From positions 11,611-75,610 of IMG/VR virus record IMGVR_UViG_3300025131_009354: a DNA stretch of 64,000 bases; one strand, given 5' to 3'. The DNA is from a virus. Positions 15,617 to 53,705 of this stretch are shown here, one piece after another. The translations under genes and the position numbers were made by a program. Each line of letters opens with the position of its first letter. The stretch's first letter is position 1. Under the pieces are notes generated by a model. That model did no database searches. It had not been told where the DNA came from and was given only the letters and a program-made list of their open reading frames with translations.

Positions 15617-15857
15617 CTTTAGTACCAAGTGTAAAGAAATCGATAAAGAGAATAGTAACCTCTTTAGGGCAGCCACCCTACTTCAAGAGCTAGGAAACGA
15701 GCCAGGACTAACAACGGCTCAGTTTGCCCTCCAACTAGAGCGTCATGATATCCCAGCAGATGAATACGAGAATCTGTACCTGGCGGCCAAAGCAATTGAA
15801 ACGATGATGTCTCTTGACCTGCCATCAGAGTTTGCTAGCGAGCCAACCGTACATTAA
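15609..15857 (+). CDS. hypothetical protein
   Basis: ATG 15609 after GGAGGAG SD. Confidence 0.5.
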   Translation: MFNFSTKCKEIDKENSNLFRAATLLQELGNEPGLTTAQFALQLERHDIPADEYENLYLAAKAIETMMSLDLPSEFASEPTVH

Positions 15858-16063
15858 TGTGGAATCCAGGTGACCTTGTAGAAATTACAGACATCGCAGC
15901 CATGCCGGCTCTTATCGGCTCAGTCGGAATCATTGTTCGCAGACTAGGAGTCAACCCAAATGGAGGCGAGGATCATTTCTATGAAGTGGATGTCTCGTCA
16001 CATGGCTATCAAATCCTAATAGAAAAAGAGCTAAGATTAGTTCGGGAAGCAAATAAAAAATGA
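15857..16063 (+). CDS. small SH3/KOW-like 'GDLV' family protein
   Basis: MWNPGDLVEI...VGIIV...YEVDV...ELRLV. Confidence 0.65.
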   Translation: MWNPGDLVEITDIAAMPALIGSVGIIVRRLGVNPNGGEDHFYEVDVSSHGYQILIEKELRLVREANKK

Positions 16064-16260
16064 AAATTGGAGATTTAGTAGAATTCTCACTTGGCACTGT
16101 GCCGGGAGAAGTAGATGGCATTGGAGTATATGCCGGCAGTAGCGATAACGGTAAGCATAAGGTGCTATATGCCGGCAGGTCTTATGAACTACAGCCACAG
16201 TTCATTAATCTAATTTCTATAGTACGAAAGACCGGTGTAAATGATCCGGTAGACAATTAA
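16060..16260 (+). CDS. small SH3/KOW-like 'GDLV' family protein
   Basis: MKIGDLVEF...GIGVY...HKVLY. Confidence 0.65.
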   Translation: MKIGDLVEFSLGTVPGEVDGIGVYAGSSDNGKHKVLYAGRSYELQPQFINLISIVRKTGVNDPVDN

Positions 16261-16375
16261 AAACAAAGTCTAAAGTAGAAACCCGCGGAACATCATTAAT
16301 CCTTTCAGCACTTCGGTACCCCCCCTACACAACTCTTTAAAACTATTGTATAATCATAGGGGAGTATTTCAGTAT

Positions 16376-16564
16376 ATGTTAACTTTTCAAAAGGGTGATT
16401 TTATTGTTGAGCACTTAGGCGCGCGATCGCCTGCGTCGTTCGGCGTAGTGACCGGTATTCATGAGGGTGAGGTTATTTCTGTACGATTCCCTAGAGGAGA
16501 ATTTTACAGCTTTGCCAGCTATTGCCGGCATTATCAGGATTGGTTAGATGAACACAGATTTTAA
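16376..16564 (+). CDS. small SH3/KOW-like family protein
   Basis: FQKGDFIVE...FGVVT...VRF. Confidence 0.55.
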   Translation: MLTFQKGDFIVEHLGARSPASFGVVTGIHEGEVISVRFPRGEFYSFASYCRHYQDWLDEHRF

Positions 16565-16772
16565 AGTTGGCGACCTTGTACGGCGTAAGTCAGTTTCCAA
16601 AAAATTGACCAACAGGCCTTACACTGCTTTGCAAGAGTCAAACGATTTGGTACTTGTTGTCAACTCCCTGCCTGCTAGTAAAAGATTTTTTTATGGCAAT
16701 GTTTGTGGTACTGGTGATACACACCTTTGGAGCGTTGATCAATTTTACTTAGTCTCTAAGGGGTGCCCGTGA
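16548..16772 (+). CDS. small SH3/KOW-like 'GDLV' family protein
   Basis: FKVGDLVRR...LVLVV. Confidence 0.65.
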   Translation: MNTDFKVGDLVRRKSVSKKLTNRPYTALQESNDLVLVVNSLPASKRFFYGNVCGTGDTHLWSVDQFYLVSKGCP

Positions 16773-16972
16773 AACGTGGTGATGTAGTTGTCTTAAGGGC
16801 AGACAAGATTTACGAACGCTATGGAAAAGACGTTCCCTATTATCTTGTAGTTGAAAGATATGACCGCGACATCGTAAAGGTACATGATCCGGTTTCCAAA
16901 GAGATGACTGCTGTGCCCATTGATGACTTAATTTTGATTTCCTCAAATTGCGGGCATCAAAAAAATTTCTAA
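16763..16972 (+). CDS. small SH3/KOW-like family protein
   Basis: VKRGDVVVL...YLVV...DDLILI. Confidence 0.55.
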   Translation: MPVKRGDVVVLRADKIYERYGKDVPYYLVVERYDRDIVKVHDPVSKEMTAVPIDDLILISSNCGHQKNF

Positions 16973-16992: not shown

Positions 16993-17229
16993 ATGAACCC
17001 TACTTTAGATTTACATGGATATAAACATCATGAAGTACAAAATGCTGTGGCGAGATTCATCGAAGATTGGTTGGGCGAAGGTGTTTTCATTGATATTATT
17101 ACGGGACATAGCGAACAAATGGTTAAGGAGACGGTCAAAGTGATTCAATATTATGGTTTAGAATATATGACAGGGTTGCCTGAGCACTCTGGGAAAATTA
17201 GAGTGGTGCTGTACAATGACTATCATTAA
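16993..17229 (+). CDS. stand-alone Smr-domain protein
   Basis: PTLDLHG and IITGH signatures. Confidence 0.8.
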   Translation: MNPTLDLHGYKHHEVQNAVARFIEDWLGEGVFIDIITGHSEQMVKETVKVIQYYGLEYMTGLPEHSGKIRVVLYNDYH

Positions 17230-17370
17230 TTTTTTGATTTATGGTGTTGCTTGGATTGTAGTGAGTTTTGGATTAACTCTTTTTATTGCTTCGGCCTTCT
17301 TCGGAATTCCTAAAGAAATTAGTGAAGAAGAATATAATGACTTGCAAAGCAAGAAGGGAAGGTAAGCCAA

Positions 17371-17718
17371 ATGTTATATAACTCGTTGTTTTTATTGTTA
17401 TTTTCTACTTTTTTCAATCAAACATACCAACTCCGGCAAATTGAGTGCCCTCGATGGATGCCCGGTAGTAATGAAGTTTTACCCCAAGGTGTGGTACTTT
17501 CTCCCGCCCTAGAACTTCAAAATAAAGTAAGATGCTACTGTGAGGTTGTTAAGCGCAAAGAAAGGCAGTGTATTGCTCGGCATGTGCCTGCCTCTATTTG
17601 TAAGGAGCGTACTTCGGTATGGGTTGCTGACAATTTGTCACTTAAAAATAGCTTCCGGTTAGTGAACGGTGTTGCGCCGGCCCCGAGACGAGATAGGATG
17701 ATGAGTTTTGAACCGTAG
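17371..17718 (+). CDS. secreted Cys-rich hypothetical protein
   Basis: hydrophobic N-terminus, five Cys. Confidence 0.5.
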   Translation: MLYNSLFLLLFSTFFNQTYQLRQIECPRWMPGSNEVLPQGVVLSPALELQNKVRCYCEVVKRKERQCIARHVPASICKERTSVWVADNLSLKNSFRLVNGVAPAPRRDRMMSFEP

Positions 17719-18109
17719 AGGAATGACCCTTCTTATAGTTTTAGTTACATCTACACTTATTAGCTTGAGTGTAACGTTATTAATTTCTTCCGTCAACACT
17801 GAAGTGATGATCGCAGGGAACAATCTCCGCATTGCCCATGCAAAAATTTCGGCGGCGAGTGGCTTGAACCACTTTGCCGCCCTTAATTTAACTTACGACA
17901 CACTTAGAGAGCGCGCTGGCGACGTGCAAACTCTTCAAATTATTCCCGAGACCCAACTTGGGCAGCGCACCTCTTATGAAGTAAATGTGCATTTTTCTCC
18001 CTCTCTAAGTGACGGGCGATATTTTGTTGAGAGCATCGGATATTACAAAAAATCTGGGCGAGTTATTTCCGTGCATCCAATAAAAGCGCTTTTTCAAGGC
18101 GAGCAATAA
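17708..18109 (+). CDS. type IV pilus PilX-like minor pilin
   Basis: prepilin-like leader MNRRG|MTLLIVL followed by ...IAGN...A..SAASGL and YFVESIG (PilX N-terminal pattern). Confidence 0.65.
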   Translation: MNRRGMTLLIVLVTSTLISLSVTLLISSVNTEVMIAGNNLRIAHAKISAASGLNHFAALNLTYDTLRERAGDVQTLQIIPETQLGQRTSYEVNVHFSPSLSDGRYFVESIGYYKKSGRVISVHPIKALFQGEQ

Positions 18110-18162
18110 AAAAACAAAACTATTTATTAAGCCGTAAGCCTATACAAAAGGGACACTTTCAC

Positions 18163-18906
18163 ATGAAGCTTGATCTTAACTTCCTTAAAAATATGATATT
18201 GGAAGAACGACAAAGCCGCAAAAAGCAGTATCTACGAGAAGGGGTTTTTGGAGATTACTCTAAAGGGCGCTCCGATCGCGGCATGACTCCTGCTGATATT
18301 GATGCTCGAATTGCAGCAGTCCAATCCAAGCTAGGAATAGAAACCGGCAACGTAGGAAAACCACAAGATGTTAAAACTTTTGGGGGATCCGGCACCGCAC
18401 CTATTCCAGGTGAAGCAACCACTACCATGGCTCCTGCTGCTGGTAACGCCGCACGGGACGCAACAAAAGACCTAATTAATAAATTTACTACCGCAGAGAA
18501 AAAAGAAGCCGCGGCGGATAGTATAATAATTCTTATTGCGACGCCTCCTTTTGGAAATGTCAAAGCCGGGGAAAAGATAGAAAATATAATTTTAAAAGAT
18601 TTCGAAAACTTTGGATCAATTCTTACGGGGCCAGGAGGATTTGGTGCCGAGGGCGTCAAGGCACTTGGACACAACTACGCGCTAACAAACGTAATAAATA
18701 CAATTTTCCCAGCAGGCTTTGGAACTACTCTCAACGATGAACAAGAGGAATCTTATACAATGCTCTTAGACATTGTCCGAGAACTGCTCGGACAGGACAA
18801 AGTGCAGGAGTTAGAAGATGAGATGGGGGTTAAGCCATTGGCTGCATTGCCTCCAGAATCTGCCGGCACTTCGCCCACGGACACAATGATAGGAGCATAT
18901 GACTAA
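18163..18906 (+). CDS. putative virion-internal protein with MKL..LK..I.EE leader
   Basis: MKLDLNFLKNMILEE...YLRE; preceded by ACTATTTAT (18119-27). Confidence 0.55.
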   Translation: MKLDLNFLKNMILEERQSRKKQYLREGVFGDYSKGRSDRGMTPADIDARIAAVQSKLGIETGNVGKPQDVKTFGGSGTAPIPGEATTTMAPAAGNAARDATKDLINKFTTAEKKEAAADSIIILIATPPFGNVKAGEKIENIILKDFENFGSILTGPGGFGAEGVKALGHNYALTNVINTIFPAGFGTTLNDEQEESYTMLLDIVRELLGQDKVQELEDEMGVKPLAALPPESAGTSPTDTMIGAYD

Positions 18907-19055
18907 TGATTACTAAAACTCCTATTTGGAATATCGTCCGGCAAGAACTAAGAGAAGCCGCTAGATCAACGAAAATTGTAAACCTTATAATAGAAAGAAT
19001 CAAGGAGACACCGCAAGATGAAGCTGACAATGAGCCAACTAAAAAAGATCGTTAG
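18906..19055 (+). CDS. small leader-motif protein (49 aa)
   Basis: hand translation MITKTPIWNIVRQELRE... Confidence 0.4.
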   Translation: MITKTPIWNIVRQELREAARSTKIVNLIIERIKETPQDEADNEPTKKDR

Positions 19056-19218
19056 CGAAGTCTTGGCAGAAGCTGCGCCTGACGGCTATATACAAAAGAA
19101 ATATAGGAAATCTTTTAAACGGATGATAGCCAAAGCCGGCAGCGGCGGGAATAAAAATACACCGCCCTTTACTAAAAAAGCAAAGCTCGGCAAATCAGGA
19201 ACTTCAGGGAACCCATAG
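19018..19218 (+). CDS. small basic protein with MKLT..QLKKI..E leader
   Basis: MKLTMSQLKKIVSEVLAE. Confidence 0.55.
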   Translation: MKLTMSQLKKIVSEVLAEAAPDGYIQKKYRKSFKRMIAKAGSGGNKNTPPFTKKAKLGKSGTSGNP

Positions 19219-19988
19219 TGAAAAAATTAATAACAGAGTGGAGAAGGTTTATAAAAGAAGGTGTCGTAATTAACATCCCTGATACCTTTGTTCCCCACTC
19301 CGAACTCAATCAGGATTTCTGGAATCAACCCGGAGAAAAGCTCGATCCGAAGATCCGATTACAACTCCTGAAAATTGCTCAGGACTTCATTGATAACAGT
19401 CAAGGATCTGACGCTCCTTTAAAGGACATCACGTTTACAGGATCACTTGCGAACTTTAATTACTCTCCCTTCTCTGATGTGGATCTTCATGTTCTTTTCG
19501 ATTTTTCTGAGATAAATGACGATGAAGAATTAGTCCGTGAATATTTTCAGGCTGCCAAAGCTGTCTGGAATTTTACCCACGACATTCGCATGAAAGGCTA
19601 TGAGGTTGAGATCTACGGGCAACACTCTAAAGATCCTCACGTAGCTTCTGGACTTTATTCAGTCCTCAACGATGAGTGGATTGTGAAACCTGACCAGAAA
19701 GATCCTCAAATCGACTTTAAAGATATTAAAGTAAAGGCTGATTCTTTGGAAGATCAGATTGATAGAGTTGTAGGACTTTATGACGAAGGCAAATATCAAG
19801 AAGCTATTGACCGTGCAGACAAACTGAAAGAGAAGATTAGAAAACTCCGCAAAACAGGACTCGATAGTGTGGGAGAGTACTCAGTTGAGAATCTCGCATT
19901 CAAAACGCTACGACGAAACGGATATCTCGGCAAATTGTCTGATGCTAAGACAGATGCTTATGATAAACTCATGTCCGTCGAGGACTAA
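19218..19988 (+). CDS. DNA polymerase beta-superfamily nucleotidyltransferase with leader peptide
   Basis: FTGSLANFNY..SDVDLHV (GS...DxD), VEIYGQ; N-terminal MKKLITEWRRFIKE. Confidence 0.78.
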   Translation: MKKLITEWRRFIKEGVVINIPDTFVPHSELNQDFWNQPGEKLDPKIRLQLLKIAQDFIDNSQGSDAPLKDITFTGSLANFNYSPFSDVDLHVLFDFSEINDDEELVREYFQAAKAVWNFTHDIRMKGYEVEIYGQHSKDPHVASGLYSVLNDEWIVKPDQKDPQIDFKDIKVKADSLEDQIDRVVGLYDEGKYQEAIDRADKLKEKIRKLRKTGLDSVGEYSVENLAFKTLRRNGYLGKLSDAKTDAYDKLMSVED

Positions 19989-20012
19989 CTCAAATAAGGA
20001 ACTATTTATAGC

Positions 20013-20324
20013 ATGAAGCTTACACGCGACATTATCAGAAACCTCATCGAAGAAGAGGTTAAACTTCTTTCTGAAGCTGTCTTCGGTGCCCAGTCCAATA
20101 TGACTGGACAAGAGAGAGAAAAAGAAAGCCTGATTGCTCAAGCTCAAGCATATCAACTTGCAATGACACCTGAAGCTTTGGAAAAACAATGGGCCGAGGC
20201 AGAAAAAGCTGGAGTGGCTCCTGAGAGTAAGAATGCGTGGATTAAGGAAAGAAAAAAACACCTTGACGACGCCTGGGCTTCGGTCAATGCAGATGCTACT
20301 CGGCTATCGGGAGGTCAGCCATAA
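20013..20324 (+). CDS. putative virion-internal protein with leader
   Basis: MKLTRDIIRNLIEEEVKLLSE; ACTATTTAT at 20001-09. Confidence 0.55.
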   Translation: MKLTRDIIRNLIEEEVKLLSEAVFGAQSNMTGQEREKESLIAQAQAYQLAMTPEALEKQWAEAEKAGVAPESKNAWIKERKKHLDDAWASVNADATRLSGGQP

Positions 20325-20325
20325 C

Positions 20326-20664
20326 ATGAAAATTACAAAACCACAACTACAACAAGTTATTCAAGAAGAGATTAAGAATGTCATCTCCGAGATGGTTCGT
20401 CTTCGTCCAAAAGATATTGCCGGTAAAGATCTCACTTTCCAAATCCTTCAGCCCATTACTAACAAAAGAGGCAAGCCTGACTTTGAGCGGGTAACCTATA
20501 AGGGCAAGATCGTAAAGCTTCCGGGTATTACCCGAAGTGAACTGCGCGATCCTCTATCTCCTGAGCAGCCTGTTATTGTAGAATTAGAGTCTGGTGAACA
20601 TCTTCATTTTGTTCCTGGCACAGATGTAAAGCTCACGCTAGCTGACGTCACATACAATTTATAA
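20326..20664 (+). CDS. putative virion-internal protein with leader
   Basis: MKITKPQLQQVIQEEIKNVISE. Confidence 0.55.
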   Translation: MKITKPQLQQVIQEEIKNVISEMVRLRPKDIAGKDLTFQILQPITNKRGKPDFERVTYKGKIVKLPGITRSELRDPLSPEQPVIVELESGEHLHFVPGTDVKLTLADVTYNL

Positions 20665-20713
20665 TCATATATTATTGACTGAATAAAACTATTTATTTTA
20701 GGTCTATAATATT

Positions 20714-21904
20714 ATGAGCACTTTTAAAGAACATAAAACAATTGCTGATAGAGCCGCGAGTGATCGTGCGCGTCATCGCCAAAAGATTGAAAAAGCTATA
20801 AAAGAGAGTATTAAGGACGTTGTAGCTGAAGAAAGTATCATTGGACAAAACGGAAAAAAGAAGATAAGAATACCTGTTAGGGGCATAAAAGAGCACCGGT
20901 TTGTTTATGGAGCTAATGAAAATAATAAGCAAGTCGGCTCAGCGGAAGGAAAAGAAGTCAAACAAGGACAGAGAATTGGACACCGCCGTCGCCGTTTAGC
21001 GAAGGAAGGACAAGGCGACCGTCCTGGAGATAAGCCCGGCGAGGAAATGTATGAGATAGAAATGTCCCTAGAGGAACTAGCTGGATATCTTTTTAGTGAC
21101 CTTAATTTGCCCGAGCTAGAAAAGAAGAACTTCAAATTTACAACTCAAGAAAAGATGAAACGGAAAGGCAAGCGCCCATACGGAATTCGTCCACGCTTGT
21201 CAAAAAAAGAAACCATTAAACAAAAGATTAGAAGAAAGAAGGCCGCAATTAAGGCGGGATCCTATGATCCGGAAAGTGGTGAGCGATTTACGTTTCACGA
21301 GAGTGACCTACGGTATAAACACATAGCACCAGTAATCAAAGAAAACACTGCTGCTGTTGTATTTTTTGTGATGGATGTGTCCGGGTCTATGACTAAATCC
21401 AAGAAGTTTCTTGCTCGGAGTTTCTTTTTTCTTCTCTATCAATTTTTAAACCATAAATATTCATCTATTGACGTAGTGTTTATTTCTCATACTGCCGACG
21501 CCCACGAAGTCAATGAGGAGCAATTTTTTACACAGGTTCCCAATGGCGGAACACTTGTCTCGACTGGGTTGAAAAAAGCAGAAGAGATTATTGAAAAACG
21601 ATATCACCCAAACAATTGGAATCTCTATACTTTTTACTGCGGGGACGGAGATAATTGGGGGATAGATAATAAAGAGGCGCTTGATGCGTTTAAGCGGTTA
21701 AAAGAGATAAATCAGGCAATGTGTTATACTGAAATCGGCTCTGAGCCGACTTACCGAGAACTTTCATTCTTTGGGGGTTCGGGCGAAAGACGGCTTTGGG
21801 ATTGGGTTAAGCTCGCAGAGGATAAGAGCTTCAAGAGAGTTCGCCTCACCGAGAGTAAAGATATTTGGCCAGCGTTTAAAAGATTATTCGGAGGTAAAGA
21901 ATAA
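20714..21904 (+). CDS. yeaH: YeaH/YhbH (DUF444) vWA-like protein
   Basis: DRARHRQKI, LFSDLNLPEL, DLRYK, FVMDVSGSM, GGT, DGDNW motifs. Confidence 0.92.
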   Translation: MSTFKEHKTIADRAASDRARHRQKIEKAIKESIKDVVAEESIIGQNGKKKIRIPVRGIKEHRFVYGANENNKQVGSAEGKEVKQGQRIGHRRRRLAKEGQGDRPGDKPGEEMYEIEMSLEELAGYLFSDLNLPELEKKNFKFTTQEKMKRKGKRPYGIRPRLSKKETIKQKIRRKKAAIKAGSYDPESGERFTFHESDLRYKHIAPVIKENTAAVVFFVMDVSGSMTKSKKFLARSFFFLLYQFLNHKYSSIDVVFISHTADAHEVNEEQFFTQVPNGGTLVSTGLKKAEEIIEKRYHPNNWNLYTFYCGDGDNWGIDNKEALDAFKRLKEINQAMCYTEIGSEPTYRELSFFGGSGERRLWDWVKLAEDKSFKRVRLTESKDIWPAFKRLFGGKE

Positions 21905-23220
21905 TGTCAGACTGGTCGATGGAAGAGCTTCAGGAATGGGATAAAAAGATTTGTAAGATTGGAGAGTCCCTGGGTTTAGACTGGTATCCAATTGAGTATG
22001 AGATATGTGATTATAAAGAGATGATCGGACACATGGCTTACACGGGGTTACCGACTCACTATAGGCATTGGTCTTTCGGAAAATCCTTTGATCGTATTCA
22101 GACAGAATATAATTTGGGGATGTCTGGTTTACCATATGAGATGATAATAAATTCCAATCCCAGTATATCGTACCTTATGACAGAGAACCCAATGCCGACC
22201 CACCTACTTACAATGGCACATTGTGTAGGCCACAGCGATTTCTTCAAGAATAACCGTATGTTCTCTGAGACCGGCGCTGATACAGTAATTGATCGGTTTA
22301 AAACCTCCGGTAAACGTGTCAAGAAATATATGGAAGATCCAAATATTGGAATTGATAAGGTTGAGAAGATATTAGATGCTTGTCACGCTATTCGTTTTCA
22401 AGTCCCGCGGACTCCCGGACTAAAACGTCGGAATCATAAAGAACTTAAAGAATATTATAAAAGATTAATATTGAATGATAAGTCTGGCTGGTGGGATCAT
22501 TTTAATTTAGAAAAAATTCCACTAGAGCCAGACTGTAACCTTTTAGCCTTTATAGCAGATAATAATCGATTTCTAGAGGAGTGGGAAAGAGATCTAATTC
22601 GTATTGTTGAACAAGAGTCTAAATATTTTGTCCCGCAAGCTTGTACCAAAATAATGAATGAGGGGTGGGCTTGCATGATGCATGAAAAAATTCTTAATAT
22701 GCTGGATATACCAGATGATTATTTCCTATCATTTGTCCGATTACATAATCAGGTAGTTAGGCCTCACTTGGGCAGGATTAATCCATATCACTTAGGGTTT
22801 AAAATATTCAAATATATTGAAGAAACCCAAGGATTTGATGAATGTCTGAGGATCAGAGAAATACACAACGACGAAACTTTCCTTAAAAACTATCTTAATG
22901 AGGAATTATGCAAAGAGTTGAATTTATTTACTTATTCGTTTAATAGGAGAGAGGGGTACAACCAAATCGCCGATGTTTCTGGGGAAGATAGCTGGCAAAG
23001 AGTCCGCGATAACCTAATTAAAGGTGTGGGATTAAATAGTGTTCCTGTAGTTCTAATAAAAGAATTACGTAAAGATGGAACACTTATTTTACAGCATGAG
23101 CACGATGGGAGAGATCTTGAATTATCCGAAGCAAATAAAGTGTTTGAGCACATTAACAGTTTGTGGGTTGGTGGTATAAGATTCACAACAGTAATAGAAG
23201 AAGATACTTGGGAGTTCTAG
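21904..23220 (+). CDS. spoVR: SpoVR/YcgB family protein
   Basis: GLPTHYRHWSFGK, YEMIINSNP, AHCVGHSDFFKNN, TKIMNEGWA, NPYHLG. Confidence 0.93.
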   Translation: MSDWSMEELQEWDKKICKIGESLGLDWYPIEYEICDYKEMIGHMAYTGLPTHYRHWSFGKSFDRIQTEYNLGMSGLPYEMIINSNPSISYLMTENPMPTHLLTMAHCVGHSDFFKNNRMFSETGADTVIDRFKTSGKRVKKYMEDPNIGIDKVEKILDACHAIRFQVPRTPGLKRRNHKELKEYYKRLILNDKSGWWDHFNLEKIPLEPDCNLLAFIADNNRFLEEWERDLIRIVEQESKYFVPQACTKIMNEGWACMMHEKILNMLDIPDDYFLSFVRLHNQVVRPHLGRINPYHLGFKIFKYIEETQGFDECLRIREIHNDETFLKNYLNEELCKELNLFTYSFNRREGYNQIADVSGEDSWQRVRDNLIKGVGLNSVPVVLIKELRKDGTLILQHEHDGRDLELSEANKVFEHINSLWVGGIRFTTVIEEDTWEF

Positions 23221-23223
23221 TAG

Positions 23224-25167
23224 ATGTCAAAAAATAACAAATCTGATAAGTTTTTGAAACTGGTTGGCAAACACCAGGAGAAGAAAAAAGTAAAACAATT
23301 TCGTGGAAGTTTATCTGAATACATGGAATTGCTTGAAGATGATTCTGGTATAGCCAAGCTTGCACATAAAAGACTGTTTGACTCCATAGTCTCGAATGGC
23401 GTAACTAGAATGGAGAGATCTAATGATCGATGCAACAAATTATTCGGCGGGGAAAAGCTTAGAACATATGATTATTTCCAAGACAAGTTCTTCGGGATGG
23501 AGCGCTCTCTTGCAAAGATAATGAGATTCTTGAGATCAGCATCTTTAAAAGGAGAAGAGAGCCGTCAAGTTCTTTTACTGCTTGGCCCAGTGGGTGCCGG
23601 TAAATCTGCCTTAATGGAGCATATCAAAAGCGCCCTAGAAGAATGTGAGGGAATGTATCATATTGATGGGTGTCCGATCCATGAAGAGCCCCTTCATCTT
23701 ATTCCCCGCTCCTTGAGGGAAGAGTTTCGTAAGCTATATGGAATTCGGATTGAAGGTGATTTGTGCCCAGTCTGCCGGTTCAGGCTTAAAGACGAATTTG
23801 ATAATGATTATATGGCAATGCCTGTTGCTCAATCTTCTTTTTCTGTCCGCGGGAGGCGTGGTGTCGGCGTGGTGCCGCCAATGGATGCCAATAGCCAGGA
23901 CGTAACAATTCTAGTTGGCAGCGAAGATATTTCAAAGCTGGATATGTATTCTGAAGATGATCCACGAGTTCTCTCACTAAATGGGGCTTTCAACGTTGGT
24001 AACCGAGGTATTGTGGAGTTTGTAGAAGTCTTTAAAAACGAAATTGAGTTCTTACATACAATGATCACAGCGACACAAGAGAAATCAGTGCCATCGCCAG
24101 GCAAAGGTCCCATGATTTATTTTGATGGCGTAATTCTAGCTCATTGTAATGAGGCAGAGTGGAACAAGTTCAAGTCAGAGAATACTAATGAAGCTATCCT
24201 TGATAGAATTGTGAGAGTTAATGTACCTTATTGCCTAGAAGTATCTGAGGAAATAAAGATTTATCAAAAGATGCTTAACCTATCTGATTTTGATGGACAT
24301 GTTGCCCCACATACACTGGAGGTTGCTTCTATGTTCGCCGTTCTTAGCCGGTTGCACCCCTCCAACAAGGTTGACCCACTAACGAAAATGAAGCTCTATA
24401 ACGGCAAGGATGTGATTGAAAAAGGTACAGTTAAGAAAATTGATATTAACGACCTCAGAGATGAATCCAGAAATGAGGGAATGACTGGTATTTCTACACG
24501 ATTCATCATGAAGGCTATTGATTCGGCTCTATCGGATAGTGAAGAAGATATGGTAACGCCAATATCTATCCGCGATGCGCTAATCAAGCAGGTCAAAGAT
24601 CAAATTGTAGTAGAGGACGACCGTAATAGATATCTTGACTTTTTGGGAAAAACATTACACGACGAATATCTTAATATCCTAGAAAAAGAAATTACAAAAG
24701 CATTTGTATCAGCATATGAAGAACAAGCAGAAGCTCTGTTTAATAACTATTTGGATCATGCGGAAGCCTACGTTAATATGGCGACAGTAAAGGATTCTAT
24801 TACAAAGGAAGAAATAAACCCAGATGACGGCTTTATGGCTTCTATCGAGGAGCAAATTGGGATTACCGGGACATCCAAAGAGAACTTCCGTGTGGATATT
24901 ACAGCCTTCATGTTCTCTAAGCTTCGACGCGGAGAGAAAGTGGACTGGAAATCTTATGCGCCGCTTAGGGAAGCTATTGAGACTAAGTTAACATCCTCAG
25001 TCAAGCAAATATCTCGCATTGTGACCAAATCTAAAAGCCGAGATAAAAAGCAACAAGGAAAATATAACGAAATGGTGGACACTCTAATAAAAGAATATGG
25101 ATACAACGAGAGTTCAGCACAAGAAGTAATTAAATTCGCAGCTAATAATCTGTGGAGAGACAGCTAA
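23224..25167 (+). CDS. prkA: PrkA/YeaG AAA+ ATPase (annotated Ser protein kinase family)
   Basis: GPVGAGKS Walker A, CPIHEEPLHL, GNRGIVEFVEVFK, EGMTGISTRF, YGYNESSA. Confidence 0.93.
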   Translation: MSKNNKSDKFLKLVGKHQEKKKVKQFRGSLSEYMELLEDDSGIAKLAHKRLFDSIVSNGVTRMERSNDRCNKLFGGEKLRTYDYFQDKFFGMERSLAKIMRFLRSASLKGEESRQVLLLLGPVGAGKSALMEHIKSALEECEGMYHIDGCPIHEEPLHLIPRSLREEFRKLYGIRIEGDLCPVCRFRLKDEFDNDYMAMPVAQSSFSVRGRRGVGVVPPMDANSQDVTILVGSEDISKLDMYSEDDPRVLSLNGAFNVGNRGIVEFVEVFKNEIEFLHTMITATQEKSVPSPGKGPMIYFDGVILAHCNEAEWNKFKSENTNEAILDRIVRVNVPYCLEVSEEIKIYQKMLNLSDFDGHVAPHTLEVASMFAVLSRLHPSNKVDPLTKMKLYNGKDVIEKGTVKKIDINDLRDESRNEGMTGISTRFIMKAIDSALSDSEEDMVTPISIRDALIKQVKDQIVVEDDRNRYLDFLGKTLHDEYLNILEKEITKAFVSAYEEQAEALFNNYLDHAEAYVNMATVKDSITKEEINPDDGFMASIEEQIGITGTSKENFRVDITAFMFSKLRRGEKVDWKSYAPLREAIETKLTSSVKQISRIVTKSKSRDKKQQGKYNEMVDTLIKEYGYNESSAQEVIKFAANNLWRDS

Positions 25168-30220: not shown

Positions 30221-30292
30221 AGGGACGTAGCTCAGTGGTAGAGCACCGGACTTTTAATCCGATGGTCGTGGGTTCAATCCCCACCGTCCCTA
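30221..30292 (+). tRNA. tRNA-Lys(TTT), CCA not encoded
   Basis: AGGGACG/CGTCCCT acceptor stem, loop CTTTTAA, GTTCAATC T-loop. Confidence 0.92.
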
Positions 30293-30300
30293 CAACAATT

Positions 30301-30377
<77 letters not shown>

Positions 30378-30387
30378 AGGAGTTTCA

Positions 30388-30987
30388 ATGTTGCGAATTT
30401 TGGGAAAGTTGCCGAGAGAGTTAGGAGTCGCCGTCAGCGGCGGACCAGACTCCATGGCTATTTTAGATTTTCTCAGCAACAATCACGATGTGACCGCAGT
30501 TTATTTCGACCACGGCACCGACTTCGGGAAGAAATGTAAAAGATTTGTAAAGAACTTTTGCGATAATAGAAATATTCCCTTTGTGATAGGAGTTAATTAT
30601 AATGATTGTCCTCCGCACAAATCACTCGAAGAGCACTGGCGTGACGAGCGTTACAAGTTCCTACATAGCTTTGATATGCCCATCATCACGGGTCATAACT
30701 TAGACGACGTGATAGAGTGGTTTTTGTTCTCTTCGATTCATGGCGCAGGCAAGGTAATGCCCTACAACAACAAAAACGTCATTCGACCATTTATCTCTAC
30801 CTCTAAACGCTCGCTGGAAGCTTGGTGTTATAGAAAAGAAGTTCCATATTTGGTTGACCCCGGAAACGCAGACAGAAAGTTCATGCGCAGCATTATCCGG
30901 CATGACATTATGCCTCACGCACGGCTCGTAAATCCGGGGATCGAAAAGACATTTAAAAAACTCGTGGAAAAGGAATATAATAACTAA
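30388..30987 (+). CDS. tilS: tRNA(Ile)-lysidine synthetase, catalytic domain only
   Basis: VAVSGGPDS PP-loop, DHG, GHNLDD, IRPF, DPGN, RSIIRH; AAGGAG SD; flanked by tRNAs including CAT. Confidence 0.88.
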   Translation: MLRILGKLPRELGVAVSGGPDSMAILDFLSNNHDVTAVYFDHGTDFGKKCKRFVKNFCDNRNIPFVIGVNYNDCPPHKSLEEHWRDERYKFLHSFDMPIITGHNLDDVIEWFLFSSIHGAGKVMPYNNKNVIRPFISTSKRSLEAWCYRKEVPYLVDPGNADRKFMRSIIRHDIMPHARLVNPGIEKTFKKLVEKEYNN

Positions 30988-30997
30988 GAAAGGATAT

Positions 30998-31074
30998 AGG
31001 GGATTAGCTCAATTGGTCAGAGCACTCGACTCATAATCGATAGGTTCAGGGTTCAAGTCCCTGATCCCCTACCA
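30998..31074 (+). tRNA. tRNA-Ile2(CAT), lysidine-type
   Basis: AGGGGAT/ATCCCCT acceptor, CGACTCATAATCG anticodon arm like bacterial tRNA-Ile2; directly after tilS; CCA. Confidence 0.85.
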
Positions 31075-31077
31075 AAA

Positions 31078-31152
31078 GCCGCTTTAGCTCAGGGGTAGAG
31101 CAGCAGTTTTGTAAACTGCCGGTCATCTGTTCGAATCAGATAAGCGGCTCCA
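31078..31152 (+). tRNA. tRNA-Thr(TGT)
   Basis: GCCGCTT/AAGCGGC acceptor, loop TTTGTAA, CCA. Confidence 0.93.
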
Positions 31153-31153
31153 T

Positions 31154-31229
31154 GCGGGCATAACTCAGTTGGTAGAGTGTCAGTTTTCCAAACTGAATGT
31201 CGTCGGTTCGAACCCGACTGTCCGCTCCA
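31154..31229 (+). tRNA. tRNA-Gly(TCC)
   Basis: GCGGGCA/TGTCCGC acceptor, loop TTTCCAA, TCCA end. Confidence 0.93.
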
Positions 31230-31230
31230 G

Positions 31231-31318
31231 GGAAGAGTGTCCGAGTGGTCGATGGTGAGGCACTAGAAATGCCTTGTACAGCGATGTACCGTGGGTTCGA
31301 ACCCCACCTCTTCCTCCA
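31231..31318 (+). tRNA. tRNA-Ser(AGA), class II, A at wobble position
   Basis: GGAAGAG/CTCTTCC acceptor, AGGCA-CTAGAAA-TGCCT anticodon arm, long variable arm GTACA-GCGA-TGTAC, CCA. Confidence 0.85.
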
Positions 31319-33047: not shown

Positions 33048-33062
33048 ATATCTATTTATAAT

Positions 33063-42384: not shown

Positions 42385-42708
42385 GGGGGTAACCGGTATC
42401 GATTGACGGGGAAGTAGAAAAGGTGCAAGGGTGAGGGAAGCGTGGCTCACTAAAAACGCTTAAACTTTTAATCGCAAACGACGATTTTAACATGGAGATG
42501 GCAGCTTAAAAACCTGACCTCTCTTGAGGCGACGGCAGCCGATAAACAGAAAGCCGTATTTGAGAACCTTAAGGCTTTTGATTATCTCAGCCACAATAAG
42601 ATGATCTAGTCAAGCGGGCTGTCCGACGAAAAAAACAGGCCTAACCTTGTGAATGACCTTTCTGTGAAACTGGACAAGACGGGAGTTCGATTCTCCCTAC
42701 CTCCACCA
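42385..42708 (+). ncRNA. ssrA: tmRNA, tag peptide (A)ANDDFNMEMAA
   Basis: GGGGGTA/TACCTCC acceptor with G3:U70, ACCA end, T-arm GGGAGTTCGATTCTCCC, tag ORF 42474-42509. Confidence 0.93.
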
Positions 42709-45616: not shown

Positions 45617-46891
45617 TTGACAGAGAAAAAGAAGATAAAAATATTAACACTGAGCGACCACCCCTTGTTGCCTTCTGGTGTCGGCACTCAGACAAAATAT
45701 ATAATACAAGCATTATTGGATAGTGGAAAATTCTCTGTCCTTTCTCTAGGTGCAGCCGTAAAACATAAAGATTATACTCCTGTACGTGTCCAGGGCTATG
45801 AGGAAGATTGGCAAATCATTCCAGTTGATGGTTATGGTACACAAGAGCAAATTAGAGTACTCTTGGCACAATATGAACCAGATATACTTTATTTCATGAC
45901 CGACCCTAGATTCTATCATTGGCTATGGGGAATGGAACATGAAATCAGACATGCTGTTCCTATGATTTATTACCATGTATGGGATAATAGGCCTTATCCG
46001 GTTTACAACAAATCTTTCTATGATTCTAACGATATGATCGCCACTATTTCGAAGGTGACGAGTGATATTGTCCAGACAGTCTCCCCAGATGTTAAAGAGC
46101 AGTATATTCCTCATGCTGTTGACACAACTATTTTTCGCCCAGCCGAAACGCCGGAAGAAATTAAAAAGTGTGTAGAAATAAGAGATGCTGTCCCTCATAT
46201 GAATGAGGATAAGTTTATAGTATTTTGGAATAACCGAAACGCCCGCCGCAAACAGAGTGGCACGTTACTGTTCTGGTGGAAAACCTTCTTGGATAAAGTA
46301 GGGCATGATAAGGCTACCTTAATTATGCATACTGATATCCGAGATGAACATGGGCAGCCTTTGGACTATATCCTAGAACATTTGGGACTAAACAAAGGAC
46401 AGGTTGTATTTTCTGTTCAGAAGATGCCGGCTGAAGAATTGTGTAACTTCTACAGATGGGCAGATTGTACGGTAAACATTGCTGACGCAGAAGGGTTTGG
46501 ATTGGCAACTCTAGAGTCTCTTGCTTGTGCAACTCCAATCATCGTGTCAATGACTGGTGGCTTACAGGAGCAAGTAACAGACGGAGAAGAGTGGTTTGGC
46601 GTCGGACTTGAGCCAACTTCTAAGTCACTAATAGGTTCTCTAAACGTGCCATTTATTTATGAGGATAGGGTCAGCGAAGAGTCTTTTGTCAATGCTTTGG
46701 AAAAGATATACAACATGACGCCCGAAGATCGAACAGCCCTAGGACAAAAAGGTCGGGAACATGTAATGAAGAATTATAATTTCGAAAACTTCAAAGAAAC
46801 TTGGGTTAGAACAATGTTAGAACTCCATGAAAGTTGTGGATCTTGGGAGAATAGAAAAAATTATCAATCTTGGGAGTTAAACACAGTATGA
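45617..46891 (+). CDS. glycosyltransferase family 4
   Basis: SGVG, IPHAVD, NRNARRK, EGFGLATLESLAC, TGGL. Confidence 0.88.
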   Translation: MTEKKKIKILTLSDHPLLPSGVGTQTKYIIQALLDSGKFSVLSLGAAVKHKDYTPVRVQGYEEDWQIIPVDGYGTQEQIRVLLAQYEPDILYFMTDPRFYHWLWGMEHEIRHAVPMIYYHVWDNRPYPVYNKSFYDSNDMIATISKVTSDIVQTVSPDVKEQYIPHAVDTTIFRPAETPEEIKKCVEIRDAVPHMNEDKFIVFWNNRNARRKQSGTLLFWWKTFLDKVGHDKATLIMHTDIRDEHGQPLDYILEHLGLNKGQVVFSVQKMPAEELCNFYRWADCTVNIADAEGFGLATLESLACATPIIVSMTGGLQEQVTDGEEWFGVGLEPTSKSLIGSLNVPFIYEDRVSEESFVNALEKIYNMTPEDRTALGQKGREHVMKNYNFENFKETWVRTMLELHESCGSWENRKNYQSWELNTV

Positions 46892-48192
46892 GCAACAAGG
46901 TTAAAAAAGTATTATTAGTCGGCCCAATCCTGTCGAATAGTGGGTATGGTGAGCATGCCAGGTGTGTTTTGCGTTCTCTTATCAGGAACATAGAGAAGTT
47001 TGATATTTATATAGCACCAACATCCTGGGGCGCAACGTCTACAGACACCAGGGACACACCCGAAAACAAATTCATCATTAATTGCATCAAGAGGACACAA
47101 CAGTATAAGGAAGGTAAATATGACATTTCCCTCCAGGTTGCTCTTCCTAATGAGTGGAAGAAAATAGCTCCAATAAATATAGGCATCACAGCGGCGGTTG
47201 AAACAGATAGGTGTAACCCAGAATGGATCCGCAATTGTAATGAGATGGATAAGGTTATTACGATATCTGAGCATGCTAGTACATCCCTCACTAAGCACGC
47301 TTACCCACTACAGGATAAACAAGGGAACCATGTTGGAACCCTTAGTTGTGAGAATAATCCCAAGGTGATAGGGTACCCGGTCAAGGAATATATTCCTGAT
47401 GATTTCTCTAAAAATTTAAATATCTCAGAGAAATGTTTCTTATCTGTTGCTCAGTTCGCTCCACGAAAAAATGTTGAGGCTCTTATCCGATCTTTTGTGG
47501 AAGAATTTAAGGAAGAAGAAGTTGGACTAGTGTTAAAGGCAAATATGGTAACAGACTCAATTATTGACCGTCGAAACACCAGCCAACTAATTGGGCAAAT
47601 GCTTAAAGCGATAGACCCAAAGGATAAACGCAAATGTAAGATTCATCTATTACACGGACGCCTAACCGAGGACGAGCTTCATTCATTGTATAGCGATCCT
47701 AGAATATTCGGATATGTAACGACTACTCATGGAGAGGGTTTTGGACTCCCGGTATTTGAAGCAGTATATTCAGGGCTTCCGGTAATAGCACCAACTTGGT
47801 CTGGGTATTTGGATTTTTTAAAGGCCCCGGTAGTAAACGAGACATCCGGAAAGGTAAGGTCAAAAAACCTATTCCTTAAAACTCGTTTTGAGCTAAAGCC
47901 GGTAGATCCCCGTGCAATTATGCAAGGAATTATCATAGAAGGGTCACAATGGGCATATATCGATGAAAAGCATTTTAAGAAAAATATGAGATCGTTATTA
48001 GAATCTCCTACATCTTATAGAAATGATGCAAAGATATTACAAGAACACATAAGAAATAAGTTTTCGGAAGAAAAAATATACTCTAAATTCTTAAATGAGA
48101 TATTGGATTCCCTTGGCAGCCATCCCGATTTAGCTCCGAAACCGGGGTTAGACGAGGATGACTTTGCTTTATTTAAGACACAAAATCTCTGA
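46888..48192 (+). CDS. glycosyltransferase family 4
   Basis: SGYGEHAR, RKNV, GEGFGLPVFEA, WSGYLDF. Confidence 0.88.
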   Translation: MSNKVKKVLLVGPILSNSGYGEHARCVLRSLIRNIEKFDIYIAPTSWGATSTDTRDTPENKFIINCIKRTQQYKEGKYDISLQVALPNEWKKIAPINIGITAAVETDRCNPEWIRNCNEMDKVITISEHASTSLTKHAYPLQDKQGNHVGTLSCENNPKVIGYPVKEYIPDDFSKNLNISEKCFLSVAQFAPRKNVEALIRSFVEEFKEEEVGLVLKANMVTDSIIDRRNTSQLIGQMLKAIDPKDKRKCKIHLLHGRLTEDELHSLYSDPRIFGYVTTTHGEGFGLPVFEAVYSGLPVIAPTWSGYLDFLKAPVVNETSGKVRSKNLFLKTRFELKPVDPRAIMQGIIIEGSQWAYIDEKHFKKNMRSLLESPTSYRNDAKILQEHIRNKFSEEKIYSKFLNEILDSLGSHPDLAPKPGLDEDDFALFKTQNL

Positions 48193-51400: not shown

Positions 51401-52240
51401 ATGTCAGATACTAATGCTTTTATTATTGCAGAAGTGGGGATCAACCACAACGGAGATATAAAAATAGCAAAAAAGCTTATTGATATCGCCCATAGTTCCG
51501 GCTGTGACGCAGTAAAGTTTCAAAAAAGAACTATCAATACCGTTTATTCCGAGGATGTCCTTGACTGTCCCCGAGAGAGCCCCTGGGGAACCACCCAGAG
51601 ACAACAAAAAGAGGGATTAGAATTCGGGAAGGAAGAATATGACATAATTGATGAGCACTGTAGAGAATTGGGGATCAAGTGGACATCCTCTGCTTGGGAT
51701 ATTGAAAGCCTATATTTTATTAATAATTACAATGTCCCGTTTCATAAAGTCGCTTCTGCTATGTTAACTCATACAGAGTTTCTTAATGAAGTAGCTAAGT
51801 GCAGGAAACATACTTATATTTCCACAGGACTATCAACAATGGAACATGTCGATGCTGCGGTAGAAATATTTAAAAATAATGACTGCCCCTTTACTCTTCT
51901 GCATTGTGTGTCAACTTACCCGACAAAAGAAGAAGATAGTAATCTTTTGACTATAAAATCTTTAGAGGAAAAGTATGGCTGTGGTGTCGGATATAGTGGA
52001 CATGAATCTGGCGGACTACCTACCCTTGTGGCCGCGGCATTAGGAGCACCAGTTATTGAGAGGCACATAACCTTAGATAAGGAAATGTATGGATCGGATC
52101 AGTCAGCTTCTTTGAATCCAAAAGAATTAAAAGAGTTGGTTTCCACTATTAGACAAGTTCAGAAAATTCTCGGGAACGGAAAAAAATCTTTACTCGACGA
52201 TGAGATTCCAATTGCCAATAAATTAAGGTACTGGGAATAG
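51401..52240 (+). CDS. neuB: nonulosonic acid synthase (NeuB family, no SAF domain)
   Basis: IIAEVGINHNGD, AVKFQ, HCVSTYP, GYSGHE, IERHITLD, GSDQ. Confidence 0.92.
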   Translation: MSDTNAFIIAEVGINHNGDIKIAKKLIDIAHSSGCDAVKFQKRTINTVYSEDVLDCPRESPWGTTQRQQKEGLEFGKEEYDIIDEHCRELGIKWTSSAWDIESLYFINNYNVPFHKVASAMLTHTEFLNEVAKCRKHTYISTGLSTMEHVDAAVEIFKNNDCPFTLLHCVSTYPTKEEDSNLLTIKSLEEKYGCGVGYSGHESGGLPTLVAAALGAPVIERHITLDKEMYGSDQSASLNPKELKELVSTIRQVQKILGNGKKSLLDDEIPIANKLRYWE

Positions 52241-52248
52241 AAGAAAAG

Positions 52249-53704: not shown

Positions 53705-53705
53705 A

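What the first reader, a model, noticed from the sequence alone, without database searches (positions are those of the whole stretch)
18163..20664. Family of proteins with a shared N-terminal leader: candidate capsid-packaging and delivery signal carrying enzyme cargo
Seen: six consecutive, otherwise unrelated ORFs start with a basic amphipathic helix ending in (I/L)xE: MKLDLNFLKNMILEE, MITKTPIWNIVRQELRE, MKLTMSQLKKIVSEVLAE, MKKLITEWRRFIKE, MKLTRDIIRNLIEEEVKLLSE, MKITKPQLQQVIQEEIKNVISE. Similar segments occur at 37795 and 41408. Known: T4 internal proteins carry a short capsid-targeting sequence that the gp21 prohead protease removes after (I/L)xE. Inference: this is a modular head-loading tag fused to interchangeable cargos. 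One cargo is a Pol-beta nucleotidyltransferase (19218), so enzymes could be injected with the DNA and act before phage transcription starts.
Basis: partly seen in the sequence, partly recalled or inferred. Interest (0 to 1): 0.8.

Follow-up and report, generated by a model that had tools for sequence, protein, structure and literature searches.

The report
Shared head-loading-like tags on phage proteins
Several neighbouring small genes of this uncultured marine T4-like phage start with one of two short peptide tags that thousands of other marine phage proteins also carry. The tags look like the "pack me into the head, then cut me off" signal of phage T4, but neither packing nor cutting has been shown.

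Summary
The six ORFs are real, and the shared N-terminus is far beyond chance. It is not one uniform family.

- **Type A (ORF3, ORF5, ORF6, plus one ORF upstream of the window):** a tight tag, consensus MKITKSQLKQIIKEE-L-x-x-h-L-x-E-G/A.
- **Type B (ORF4, the nucleotidyltransferase):** a second tag, MKKLLTEWRKFLKEG.
- **ORF1 and ORF2:** only weakly leader-like.
- **37795 and 41408:** do not match.

How widespread type A is:
- It heads at least 2,573 protein clusters in public metagenomes.
- It occurs 1 to 24 times per genome in nine large marine phage genomes.
- A start codon precedes 98% of copies.
- It is conserved as protein, not as DNA.

Evidence linking the tag to the phage head:
- All nine large genomes encode a T4 gp21-type prohead protease.
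- A complete relative collinear with this window (190.5 kb) carries that protease plus portal, scaffold and capsid genes.
- A conserved gene beside the protease starts with a leader-like sequence.
- The tag holds the gp21 cutting motif (I/L-x-E).
- The cargo between conserved flanking genes differs among three related phages.

This fits a T4-like capsid-targeting and processing tag, but packaging, cleavage and injection are untested. The scan had already met this leader family on other DNA (e1-5698563). Verdict: a new variant of a known kind, moderately interesting.

The parts
18119..18126 (+). Promoter-like motif ACTATTTA, 36 nt before ORF1
   Evidence: The motif is strand-biased: 19 on + against 1 on - in the complete relative G009, and 7 against 2 here. 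In G009 it lies 31-72 nt upstream of the scaffold, tail-sheath and tail-tube genes.
18163..18906 (+). ORF1, 247 aa, acidic orphan cargo with a weak leader-like N-terminus (MKLDLNFLKNMILEE)
   Evidence: ORF confirmed. Scores 7.5 bits on the weight matrix and is not hit by the HMM. No Pfam, PHROG or Atlas relatives. No counterpart in G001 or G009.
18906..19055 (+). ORF2, 49 aa, a small conserved ORF that overlaps ORF3; its leader status is doubtful
   Evidence: Orthologues of 43-49 aa sit at the same place in G001 and G009. The (I/L)xE is not conserved in G001. Scores 6.9 bits.
19018..19218 (+). ORF3, 66 aa: type A leader (19018-19071) plus a very basic tail (pI 10.7 after a cut at LAE/A)
   Evidence: Weight matrix 23.7 bits, HMM E 1.4e-3. 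pI. The cargo aligns to the basic linker of distant nucleotidyltransferase proteins. Orthologues are present in G001 and G009.
19218..19988 (+). ORF4, 256 aa, GTG start: type B leader (19218-19259) plus a Pol-beta-type nucleotidyltransferase with a C-terminal helical bundle
   Evidence: Type B regex matched 0 of 2,839 control starts. PF01909 scores 18.8 bits, below its cut-off; phrog_36119 E 6e-43. The GS...DxD motif is conserved. Model pLDDT 77, helix at residues 2-13. Foldseek top hits are aminoglycoside nucleotidyltransferases and CD-NTases.
20001..20008 (+). Second ACTATTTA motif, 4 nt before the ORF5 start codon
   Evidence: The same tight spacing before an ATG occurs at 33053 and at G009 177664.
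20013..20324 (+). ORF5, 103 aa: type A leader (20013-20075) plus orphan cargo
   Evidence: Weight matrix 21.6 bits, HMM E 1e-4. No counterpart in G001 or G009.
20326..20664 (+). ORF6, 112 aa: type A leader (20326-20391; the module shared at DNA level is 20326-20370) plus a small beta-rich domain
   Evidence: Weight matrix 24.7 bits, HMM E 3e-9. In four marine metagenomes many contigs match only 20326-20369/70 and diverge on both sides. The model shows helix 5-21, then a beta domain with pLDDT 80-89 and no clear PDB match.
20688..20695 (+). Third ACTATTTA motif, 18 nt before the DUF444-SpoVR-PrkA genes that flank the cluster

Best explanation
The leaders are capsid-targeting and processing tags of a distant T4-like marine phage.

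Proposed mechanism: a 15-22-residue N-terminal helix docks a small, fast-changing set of proteins onto the scaffolding core of the assembling prohead. The helix is either type A (MKITKSQLKQIIKEE...LxE) or type B (MKKLLTEWRKFLKEG). The gp21-type prohead protease then cuts after the Glu of I-K-E or of the downstream L-x-E, which leaves the mature cargo inside the head to leave with the DNA. In this window the cargo would include a lysine-rich DNA-binding-like peptide (ORF3), a nucleotidyltransferase (ORF4) and two or three orphans.

Shown here:
- the tag families, their statistics and their protein-level conservation;
- their restriction to start codons;
- the variable cargo between conserved flanks;
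- the protease and head genes in a complete collinear relative;
- leader-like N-termini on head-module genes.

Inferred, not shown: docking, cleavage, presence in virions, injection and late timing.
For: 1. **The tag families are real.** Type A. Type B.
2. **Type A is widespread.** 2,573 cluster representatives match at E <= 0.001. A strict DNA pattern gives 100 copies in nine large genomes against 0 for the reversed control, all on the coding strand.
3. **It is tied to translation starts.** Of 402 copies in 120 IMG/VR loci, 98% follow ATG, GTG or TTG.
4. **It carries the gp21 motif.** In a logo of 171 copies, I12 is 95%, K13 75%, E14 99% and E15 93%. A second h-x-E at residues 20-22 occurs in 42% of copies, with another 17% ending at residue 21, and is followed by G/S/A. 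This matches the gp21 rule L/I-x-E, and the T4 CTS is the first 10 residues of IPIII (PMC9026906).
5. **Selection acts on the protein.** Only 55% of same-residue codon pairs are identical.
6. **The protease is always there.** PF03420 was found in 9 of 9 large tag-bearing genomes.
7. **A complete relative has the head machinery.** G009 is collinear with this genome (84 ORFs at 30-88% identity). Its protease is 35% identical to T4 gp21. Its capsid protein aligns LLRE/T with T4's maturation site FLTE/A.
8. **Head-module genes look tagged.** The conserved ORF just after the protease starts MAKI[TS]K..LKGIVKECLVEIL.EGL, with leader-HMM E from 6e-4 to 5.5e-3 in four genomes. In G012 two canonical type A ORFs (E 3e-14 and 9e-8) lie directly upstream of the protease.
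9. **Cargo is interchangeable.** Between the conserved flanks (62-83% identity), the gene content differs in G000, G001 and G009.
10. **Both halves of a split gene keep a tag.** Distant relatives have one gene reading leader, basic linker, nucleotidyltransferase. Here the basic part (ORF3) and the enzyme (ORF4) are separate genes, each with its own leader.
11. **A shared upstream motif.** ACTATTTA precedes ORF1 and ORF5 here and precedes the scaffold, sheath and tube genes in G009.
12. **The leader is a separate element.** AlphaFold2 models place it as a detached low-confidence helix.
Against: - There are no virion proteomes, N-terminal data or expression timing for any member.
- No cultured phage carries the tag: tblastn of a two-copy member found nothing in 50,697 GenBank phage records.
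- The window's own 75.6-kb contig and its closest relative contain no head genes or protease. The link therefore runs through the relative G009.
- In most genomes the tag clusters lie far from the head module. Only G012 has them adjacent and G010 within about 7 kb. T4's ip genes are also distant from its head genes, which I state from general knowledge.
- Type A has no significant similarity to the T4 CTS. T4 gp67 scores E 1.8 against the leader HMM.
- The ACTATTTA motif also precedes the PrkA operon and other non-structural genes.
- All nine genomes may belong to one broad lineage, so co-occurrence with gp21 discriminates weakly.
- [IL]xE alone is common by chance, at about 20% of N-termini by my estimate.
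Confidence: 0.55

Rival explanations
1. The tag is a docking or oligomerisation helix for some other shared partner, and it is not removed. The partner could be a host factor, DNA, another virion site such as the tail or baseplate, or a phage-made compartment.
For: Fifteen residues are near-invariant, far more than a three-residue cleavage site needs. Some proteins carry 2-4 copies, including internal copies that have lost their start codon. Most clusters are far from the head genes.
Against: The leader HMM hits head-module proteins next to the protease in four genomes, and canonical leaders flank the protease in G012. E14 is 99% conserved inside an I-x-E context, and a second h-x-E followed by a small residue is frequent. 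The T4 CTS also needs targeting residues beyond the cleavage site (PMC9026906).
Confidence: 0.22
2. The shared 45 nt is kept mainly as a DNA or RNA element. It would serve as a strong translation-initiation region or as a recombination cassette for shuffling genes, and the peptide itself would have no function.
For: Many metagenome contigs share only 20326-20370 and diverge on both sides. The codons CAA CTA for Q-L recur. An earlier scan note reports swaps at the tag DNA (e1-5698563).
Against: Only 55% of same-residue codon pairs use the same codon, so the selection is on the peptide. Internal copies without a start codon keep the peptide. Type B and the head-module variants keep the helix and the x-E pattern with different DNA.
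Confidence: 0.08
3. The tag marks substrates of the neighbouring DUF444-SpoVR-PrkA system, in which PrkA is a AAA+ kinase or Lon-like protease.
For: The cluster abuts this operon in G000, G001 and G009. PrkA is present in 7 of 9 large tag-bearing genomes.
Against: G012 (95% complete) and G013 lack PrkA but have the tag, and in G012 the tag sits next to the prohead protease. Most tag clusters are far from PrkA.
Confidence: 0.05
4. The resemblance is chance or simple paralogy: ordinary MK-start helices, or a recently duplicated gene family.
For: ORF1 and ORF2 score within the range of shuffled genomes, which give 1.7 hits per genome at 6.9 bits or more.
Against: There are four hits of 20-25 bits with nothing between 8 and 20 bits. 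The DNA pattern gives 100 matches against 0 for the control. The cargos are unrelated once the leaders are removed.
Confidence: 0.03

Closest known systems
Phage T4 capsid targeting sequence (CTS, MKTYQEFIAE) on internal proteins IPI, IPII, IPIII and on Alt, removed by the gp21 prohead protease
   Same: A short N-terminal peptide is shared by otherwise unrelated, fast-evolving small proteins. It ends in I/L-x-E before a small residue. The phage lineage has a gp21-type (S77) protease. Some cargo is small and basic, and one cargo is an enzyme, as Alt is. The cargo genes lie away from the head genes.
   Different: The sequence differs and is longer: 15-22 residues in two types, with no significant similarity of type A to the T4 CTS. 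The scale is much larger, at up to 24 strict copies per genome and at least 2,573 protein clusters. Multi-tag fused proteins exist. Packaging and cleavage are unproven.
T4 prohead core proteins gp67 and gp68, cleaved at several L/I-x-E sites
   Same: The genes sit next to the protease gene. T4 gp67 contains ...LIKEE...FLIE/G followed by an acidic tail. That resembles the leader-like head-module ORFs and the acidic tagged ORF upstream of the window.
   Different: There is no significant sequence match (E 1.8), and orthology is not established.
Inner-body and ejection proteins of phiKZ, 201phi2-1 and SPN3US, processed by gp175/gp245-type proteases after S/A/G-x-E
   Same: Many head-internal proteins have N-terminal propeptides that are cut after Glu, with redundant cleavage sites (PMC9026906).
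   Different: The phage lineage and the protease subfamily differ, and no single shared leader sequence is described there.
Phage P1 Dar proteins and encapsulin cargo-loading peptides
   Same: A short peptide directs diverse cargo into a capsid-like shell.
   Different: These are unrelated systems. The encapsulin tags are C-terminal and are not cleaved (general knowledge).

Membership tests
T4-type capsid-targeting / internal-protein system | A short N-terminal peptide shared by otherwise unrelated proteins of one phage | tested here: met
   It holds for ORF3, ORF5 and ORF6 (type A) and ORF4 (type B). ORF1 and ORF2 are doubtful.
T4-type capsid-targeting / internal-protein system | The leader ends in the gp21 cleavage motif L/I-x-E | tested here: met
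   I12-K13-E14 are present in 95%, 75% and 99% of 171 copies, and a second h-x-E ends at residue 21 or 22 in about 59%. Type B ends in [IL]-K-E-G. This shows the motif only; cleavage was not tested.
T4-type capsid-targeting / internal-protein system | The phage encodes an S77 (gp21-type) prohead protease | tested here: inconclusive
   It is absent from the window's 75.6-kb fragment, which is 37% complete. It is present in the complete collinear relative G009 and in 9 of 9 large tag-bearing genomes.
T4-type capsid-targeting / internal-protein system | Sequence similarity to the T4 CTS MKTYQEFIAE | tested here: not met
   The type A HMM gives no significant hit in the T4 head region. Type B (..EWRKFLKEG) resembles QEFIAEA only by eye.
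T4-type capsid-targeting / internal-protein system | The proteins are built into the prohead core, trimmed, and found in virions | not testable with these tools
   There is no cultured member and no proteome. The only indirect support is the leader-like N-termini of head-module genes.
T4-type capsid-targeting / internal-protein system | The cargo locus is hypervariable among related phages | tested here: met
   The flanks are 62-83% identical. ORF1 and ORF5 are unique to this genome, and the nucleotidyltransferase is absent from G009.
T4-type capsid-targeting / internal-protein system | Expression together with head genes (late) | tested here: inconclusive
   The ACTATTTA motif is shared with the scaffold, sheath and tube genes of G009, but it also precedes non-structural genes.
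Pol-beta superfamily nucleotidyltransferase (PF01909, ANT/KNTase-like) | A G-S ... D-x-D catalytic motif on a mixed beta sheet | tested here: met
   TGSLANFNYSPFSDVDLH is conserved in 9 homologues, and the model places it on strands.
Pol-beta superfamily nucleotidyltransferase (PF01909, ANT/KNTase-like) | The Pfam model scores above its curated cut-off | tested here: not met
   18.8 bits against a cut-off of 21.
Pol-beta superfamily nucleotidyltransferase (PF01909, ANT/KNTase-like) | The fold matches solved nucleotidyltransferases | tested here: inconclusive
   The Foldseek top hits are AAD(9), LinB, AadA and CdnE, at E from 6e-4 to 1e-2 and probability 0.7-0.9, but TM-scores are only about 0.23. 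The VIA wide search was filled by the helical bundle.

The most novel reading that the evidence does not exclude
Abundant uncultured marine T4-like phages of 146-293 kb use a two-tag address code (types A and B) to load dozens of unrelated proteins per genome into the capsid. The cargo would include enzymes and multi-tag polyproteins that the prohead protease cuts into separate pieces. If so, the injected proteome of uncultured phages could be read directly from sequence, covering thousands of protein families.
Probability: 0.35. Interest if true: 0.75.

Novelty: new variant of a known kind. Interest (0 to 1): 0.6.

Why it matters
If the tags do load proteins into the head, they are a sequence-only marker for proteins that enter the host cell together with the DNA. 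Such proteins are prime candidates for anti-defence and takeover functions, and this phage group recurs in at least 20 marine metagenome samples. The tags would also extend the T4 internal-protein idea from three or four proteins to dozens per genome. They would offer new targeting peptides for phage-capsid delivery tools. The tag further explains a large set of otherwise unannotated marine viral ORFs: at least 2,573 clusters, and none of the 120 best-scoring tagged proteins in a parallel word-index search carried a Pfam domain.

Tried and rejected
- **Near-DNA search of the region against GenBank phages:** no match.
- **tblastn of a two-copy tag protein against 50,697 phage records:** no match.
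- **PF03420 search in the window's genome and four related fragments:** none found, because the fragments lack head modules.
- **Pfam and PHROG scans of the larger window ORFs:** no recognisable head genes.
- **The look-up of encoding contigs:** The genomic context of the long ENA contigs (183 kb, 140 kb) could therefore not be read.
- **ESM Atlas for ORF1:** nothing usable.
- **VIA wide fold search for the nucleotidyltransferase:** matched only generic helical bundles.
- **Foldseek for the ORF6 cargo:** best E 0.085.
- **Sigma-70 promoter and terminator scan:** at the level of shuffled sequence.
- **T4 late promoter TATAAATA:** rare on the coding strand.
- **PrkA as the tag's partner:** rejected, because G012 and G013 lack it.
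- **'Half of tagged proteins are polyproteins':** rejected as a search bias. In unbiased loci only 9 of 269 neighbouring leader pairs are fused.
- **Pilin-like reading of the upstream flank gene (17708-18109):** not confirmed by Pfam.
- **Literature search:** no paper in the held library describes this leader family.
Full report
**What the window is.** The window is bases 11611-75610 of an IMG/VR virus record of 75,610 bp, estimated 37% complete. Nearly all genes are on the + strand. It carries six tRNAs and a tmRNA, a DUF444-SpoVR-PrkA operon, a PhoH gene, NeuB-type sugar genes and glycosyltransferases. No head gene is recognisable. It has no close DNA relative among 50,697 GenBank phage records. 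The region recurs in more than 20 marine metagenome samples.

**The observation.** The six ORFs at 18163-20664 exist as described. ORF6 starts at 20326. To test the shared leader without circularity, I trained a weight matrix on six leaders of a relative (G001, nucleotidyltransferase 70% identical). I dropped the Met column and scanned all six frames of the 75.6-kb genome.
- Four windows scored 20-25 bits and nothing else exceeded 8 bits. They are ORF3, ORF5 and ORF6, each directly after ATG, and an 83-aa acidic ORF 4.9 kb upstream of the window.
- An HMM built from 157 metagenomic copies found the same four among 1,696 possible starts on both strands, with E from 3e-9 to 1.5e-3.
- ORF1 (7.5 bits) and ORF2 (6.9 bits) rank next and lie exactly at N-termini. 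Such scores arise 1.7 times per shuffled genome, the HMM misses them, and the ORF2 orthologue in G001 lacks the (I/L)xE.
- The sites at 37795 and 41408 are not detected.
- ORF4 carries a different tag, MKKLITEWRRFIKEG. Eight ORFs of G001 and G009 share this 'type B' pattern, against 0 of 2,839 control starts. A strict DNA pattern for it finds 30 IMG/VR stretches, often in the same contigs as type A.

**How widespread and how conserved type A is.**
- A profile of ten leaders matched 2,573 cluster representatives (50% identity clusters) at E <= 0.001 among 1.84 billion proteins.
- In a word-indexed search, 119 of the best 120 hits start with the tag at residue 2 and none has a Pfam domain.
- A degenerate DNA pattern hit at least 120 IMG/VR stretches. 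In those loci I counted 402 copies, of which 98% are preceded by ATG, GTG or TTG. Median spacing is 374 nt, so the arrays are made of small genes.
- In nine large genomes (146-293 kb) the pattern occurs 1-24 times, always on the coding strand. That is 100 matches against 0 for the reversed control.
- The logo from 171 copies reads M92 K95 I81 T97 K95 S77 Q71 L96 [RK] [QK] I/L88 I95 K75 E99 E93 [LVI]83. A second hydrophobic-x-E follows at residues 20-22 in 42% of copies (plus 17% ending at 21), then G/S/A.
- Among codon pairs that encode the same residue, only 55% are identical, so selection acts on the peptide.
- In four metagenomes many contigs match only 20326-20369/70, the first 15 codons of ORF6, and diverge on both sides.
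- AlphaFold2 models of ORF4 and ORF6 show the leader as a detached, lower-confidence helix before the folded body.

**Link to the head.** The window's contig and G001 lack head genes. G001 reaches only a T4-like baseplate and tail module.
- One tag-bearing IMG/VR genome, G009 (190,528 bp, 100% complete), is collinear with this genome. 84 ORFs match at 30-88% identity in the same order.
- G009 has terminase, portal (phrog_213), a head maturation protease (phrog_207, PF03420; 35% identical to T4 gp21, E 1e-25), scaffold and major capsid protein.
- Its capsid protein aligns with T4 gp23 so that LLRE/T falls on T4's maturation site FLTE/A. This suggests that the L-x-E specificity is kept.
- PF03420 was found in 9 of 9 large tag-bearing genomes.
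- In every one of them a conserved ORF just downstream of the protease starts with a leader-like sequence (MAKI[TS]K..LKGIVKECLVEIL.EGL; in G009 MKKSELKNIIKECVKEVIFEEG). The type A HMM hits it at E from 6e-4 to 5.5e-3 in four genomes, among 1,417 candidate N-termini.
- In G012 two canonical type A ORFs (E 3e-14 and 9e-8) lie immediately upstream of the protease, where T4 has genes 67 and 68.
- T4 gp67 itself contains ...LIKEE...FLIE/G before an acidic tail, but the match is not significant.
- The literature confirms that gp21 cuts after L/I-x-E, that the first 10 residues of IPIII suffice for head targeting, and that T-even internal proteins share only the CTS (PMC9026906; PMC3012670).

**Cargo and locus dynamics.** Between the conserved flank genes (17708-18109, 62-71% identical; DUF444, 78-83%) the content differs.
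- This genome has ORF1-ORF6.
- G001 has nine ORFs, including four unique type A cargos and a 374-aa type B cargo.
- G009 has ORF2-like and ORF3-like genes, two type B genes, a 383-aa ORF with an internal type A copy, and an ORF6-like gene. It has no nucleotidyltransferase.
- After a cut at LAE/A, ORF3 would be a 48-residue lysine-rich peptide of pI 10.7. That part aligns with the basic linker which, in distant relatives, joins a leader to the nucleotidyltransferase in one protein. When the gene is split, both halves carry a leader.
- ORF4 has the GS...DxD motif and an ANT/KNTase-like architecture, but the Pfam score is below cut-off.
- Homologues of this enzyme occur in Maribacter phage Molly, in Kyanoviridae and in huge phages, mostly with other short N-terminal helices.

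**Timing.** ACTATTTA is strongly strand-biased (19:1 in G009). In G009 it lies 31-72 nt upstream of the scaffold, sheath and tube genes. Here it lies upstream of ORF1 (36 nt), ORF5 (4 nt), DUF444 (18 nt) and the upstream acidic tagged ORF (43 nt). This is a hint of co-expression with structural genes and not a proof, because non-structural genes have the motif too.

**Rivals.**
- PrkA is present in 7 of 9 genomes but absent from G012 (95% complete) and G013. The neighbouring operon is therefore unlikely to be the tag's partner.
- A pure DNA or RNA role is unlikely given the synonymous variation and the internal copies that have lost their start codon.
- A docking helix for another partner cannot be excluded. 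Fifteen near-invariant residues exceed what a cleavage site needs, most tag clusters are far from the head genes, and proteins with 2-4 tags exist. Those are rare in unbiased loci, at 9 of 269 neighbouring pairs.

**Verdict.** The T4-like capsid-targeting reading is the best-supported explanation (about 0.55) but rests on sequence logic and genomic association only. An earlier report of this scan met the same leader family on other DNA and reached a similar reading (e1-5698563). No paper in the held library describes it. I class it as a new variant of a known kind.

Noticed in passing
window 42385-42708 and 30221-31318: The phage encodes a tmRNA (tag ANDDFNMEMAA) and a cluster of six tRNAs (Lys, Arg, Met, Thr, Gly, Ser).
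   Followed up: no
window 20714-25167: A complete DUF444 (YeaH-like), SpoVR and PrkA operon sits in a phage. It is conserved in 7 of 9 large related genomes. Its role in a virus is unknown.
   Followed up: partly
G009 17197-17478 (L147); Mel-JY01 22183-22410 (L019): A ribosomal protein S21 homologue sits inside the head-morphogenesis module, between the protease and the scaffold, in two distant relatives.
   Followed up: no
window 18119, 20001, 20688, 33053; G009 17923, 23538, 26773: The motif ACTATTTA is strand-biased and promoter-like. In three cases it lies only 2-4 nt before the ATG, which may mean leaderless transcripts.
   Followed up: partly
window 15857-16972 and the first 1.4 kb of the genome upstream of the window: There are runs of 60-90-aa paralogues that share an N-terminal M-K-x-G-D-L-V motif. 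They are also abundant in the distant relatives L007 and L009.
   Followed up: no
about 5-6.5 kb upstream of window position 1 (outside the window, same contig): Two very acidic small proteins lie here. One (83 aa) has a type A leader and a leader-like C-terminus. The other (168 aa) is Glu/Asp-rich and scaffold-like or DNA-mimic-like. Both are conserved in G001 and G009.
   Followed up: partly
about 1.8-3.4 kb upstream of window position 1 (same contig): A GroEL-like chaperonin of 534 aa, judged by its N-terminal sequence. It is 80% identical in G009.
   Followed up: no
leader codons 7-8 of most type A copies: Gln-Leu is nearly always encoded CAA CTA, although other positions vary synonymously. 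This may be a local RNA-level constraint.
   Followed up: no
window 51401-55243 and 45617-48192: Two NeuB-family genes and several glycosyltransferases suggest that the phage encodes nonulosonic-acid or glycan synthesis.
   Followed up: no
Maribacter phage Molly_1, L002 3441-8503: Several neighbouring Molly proteins, including the nucleotidyltransferase homologue, start with a different shared helix (M-x-L-K-[ST]-L-[VI]-E-[ST]). A cultured phage may therefore have an analogous tag family.
   Followed up: no
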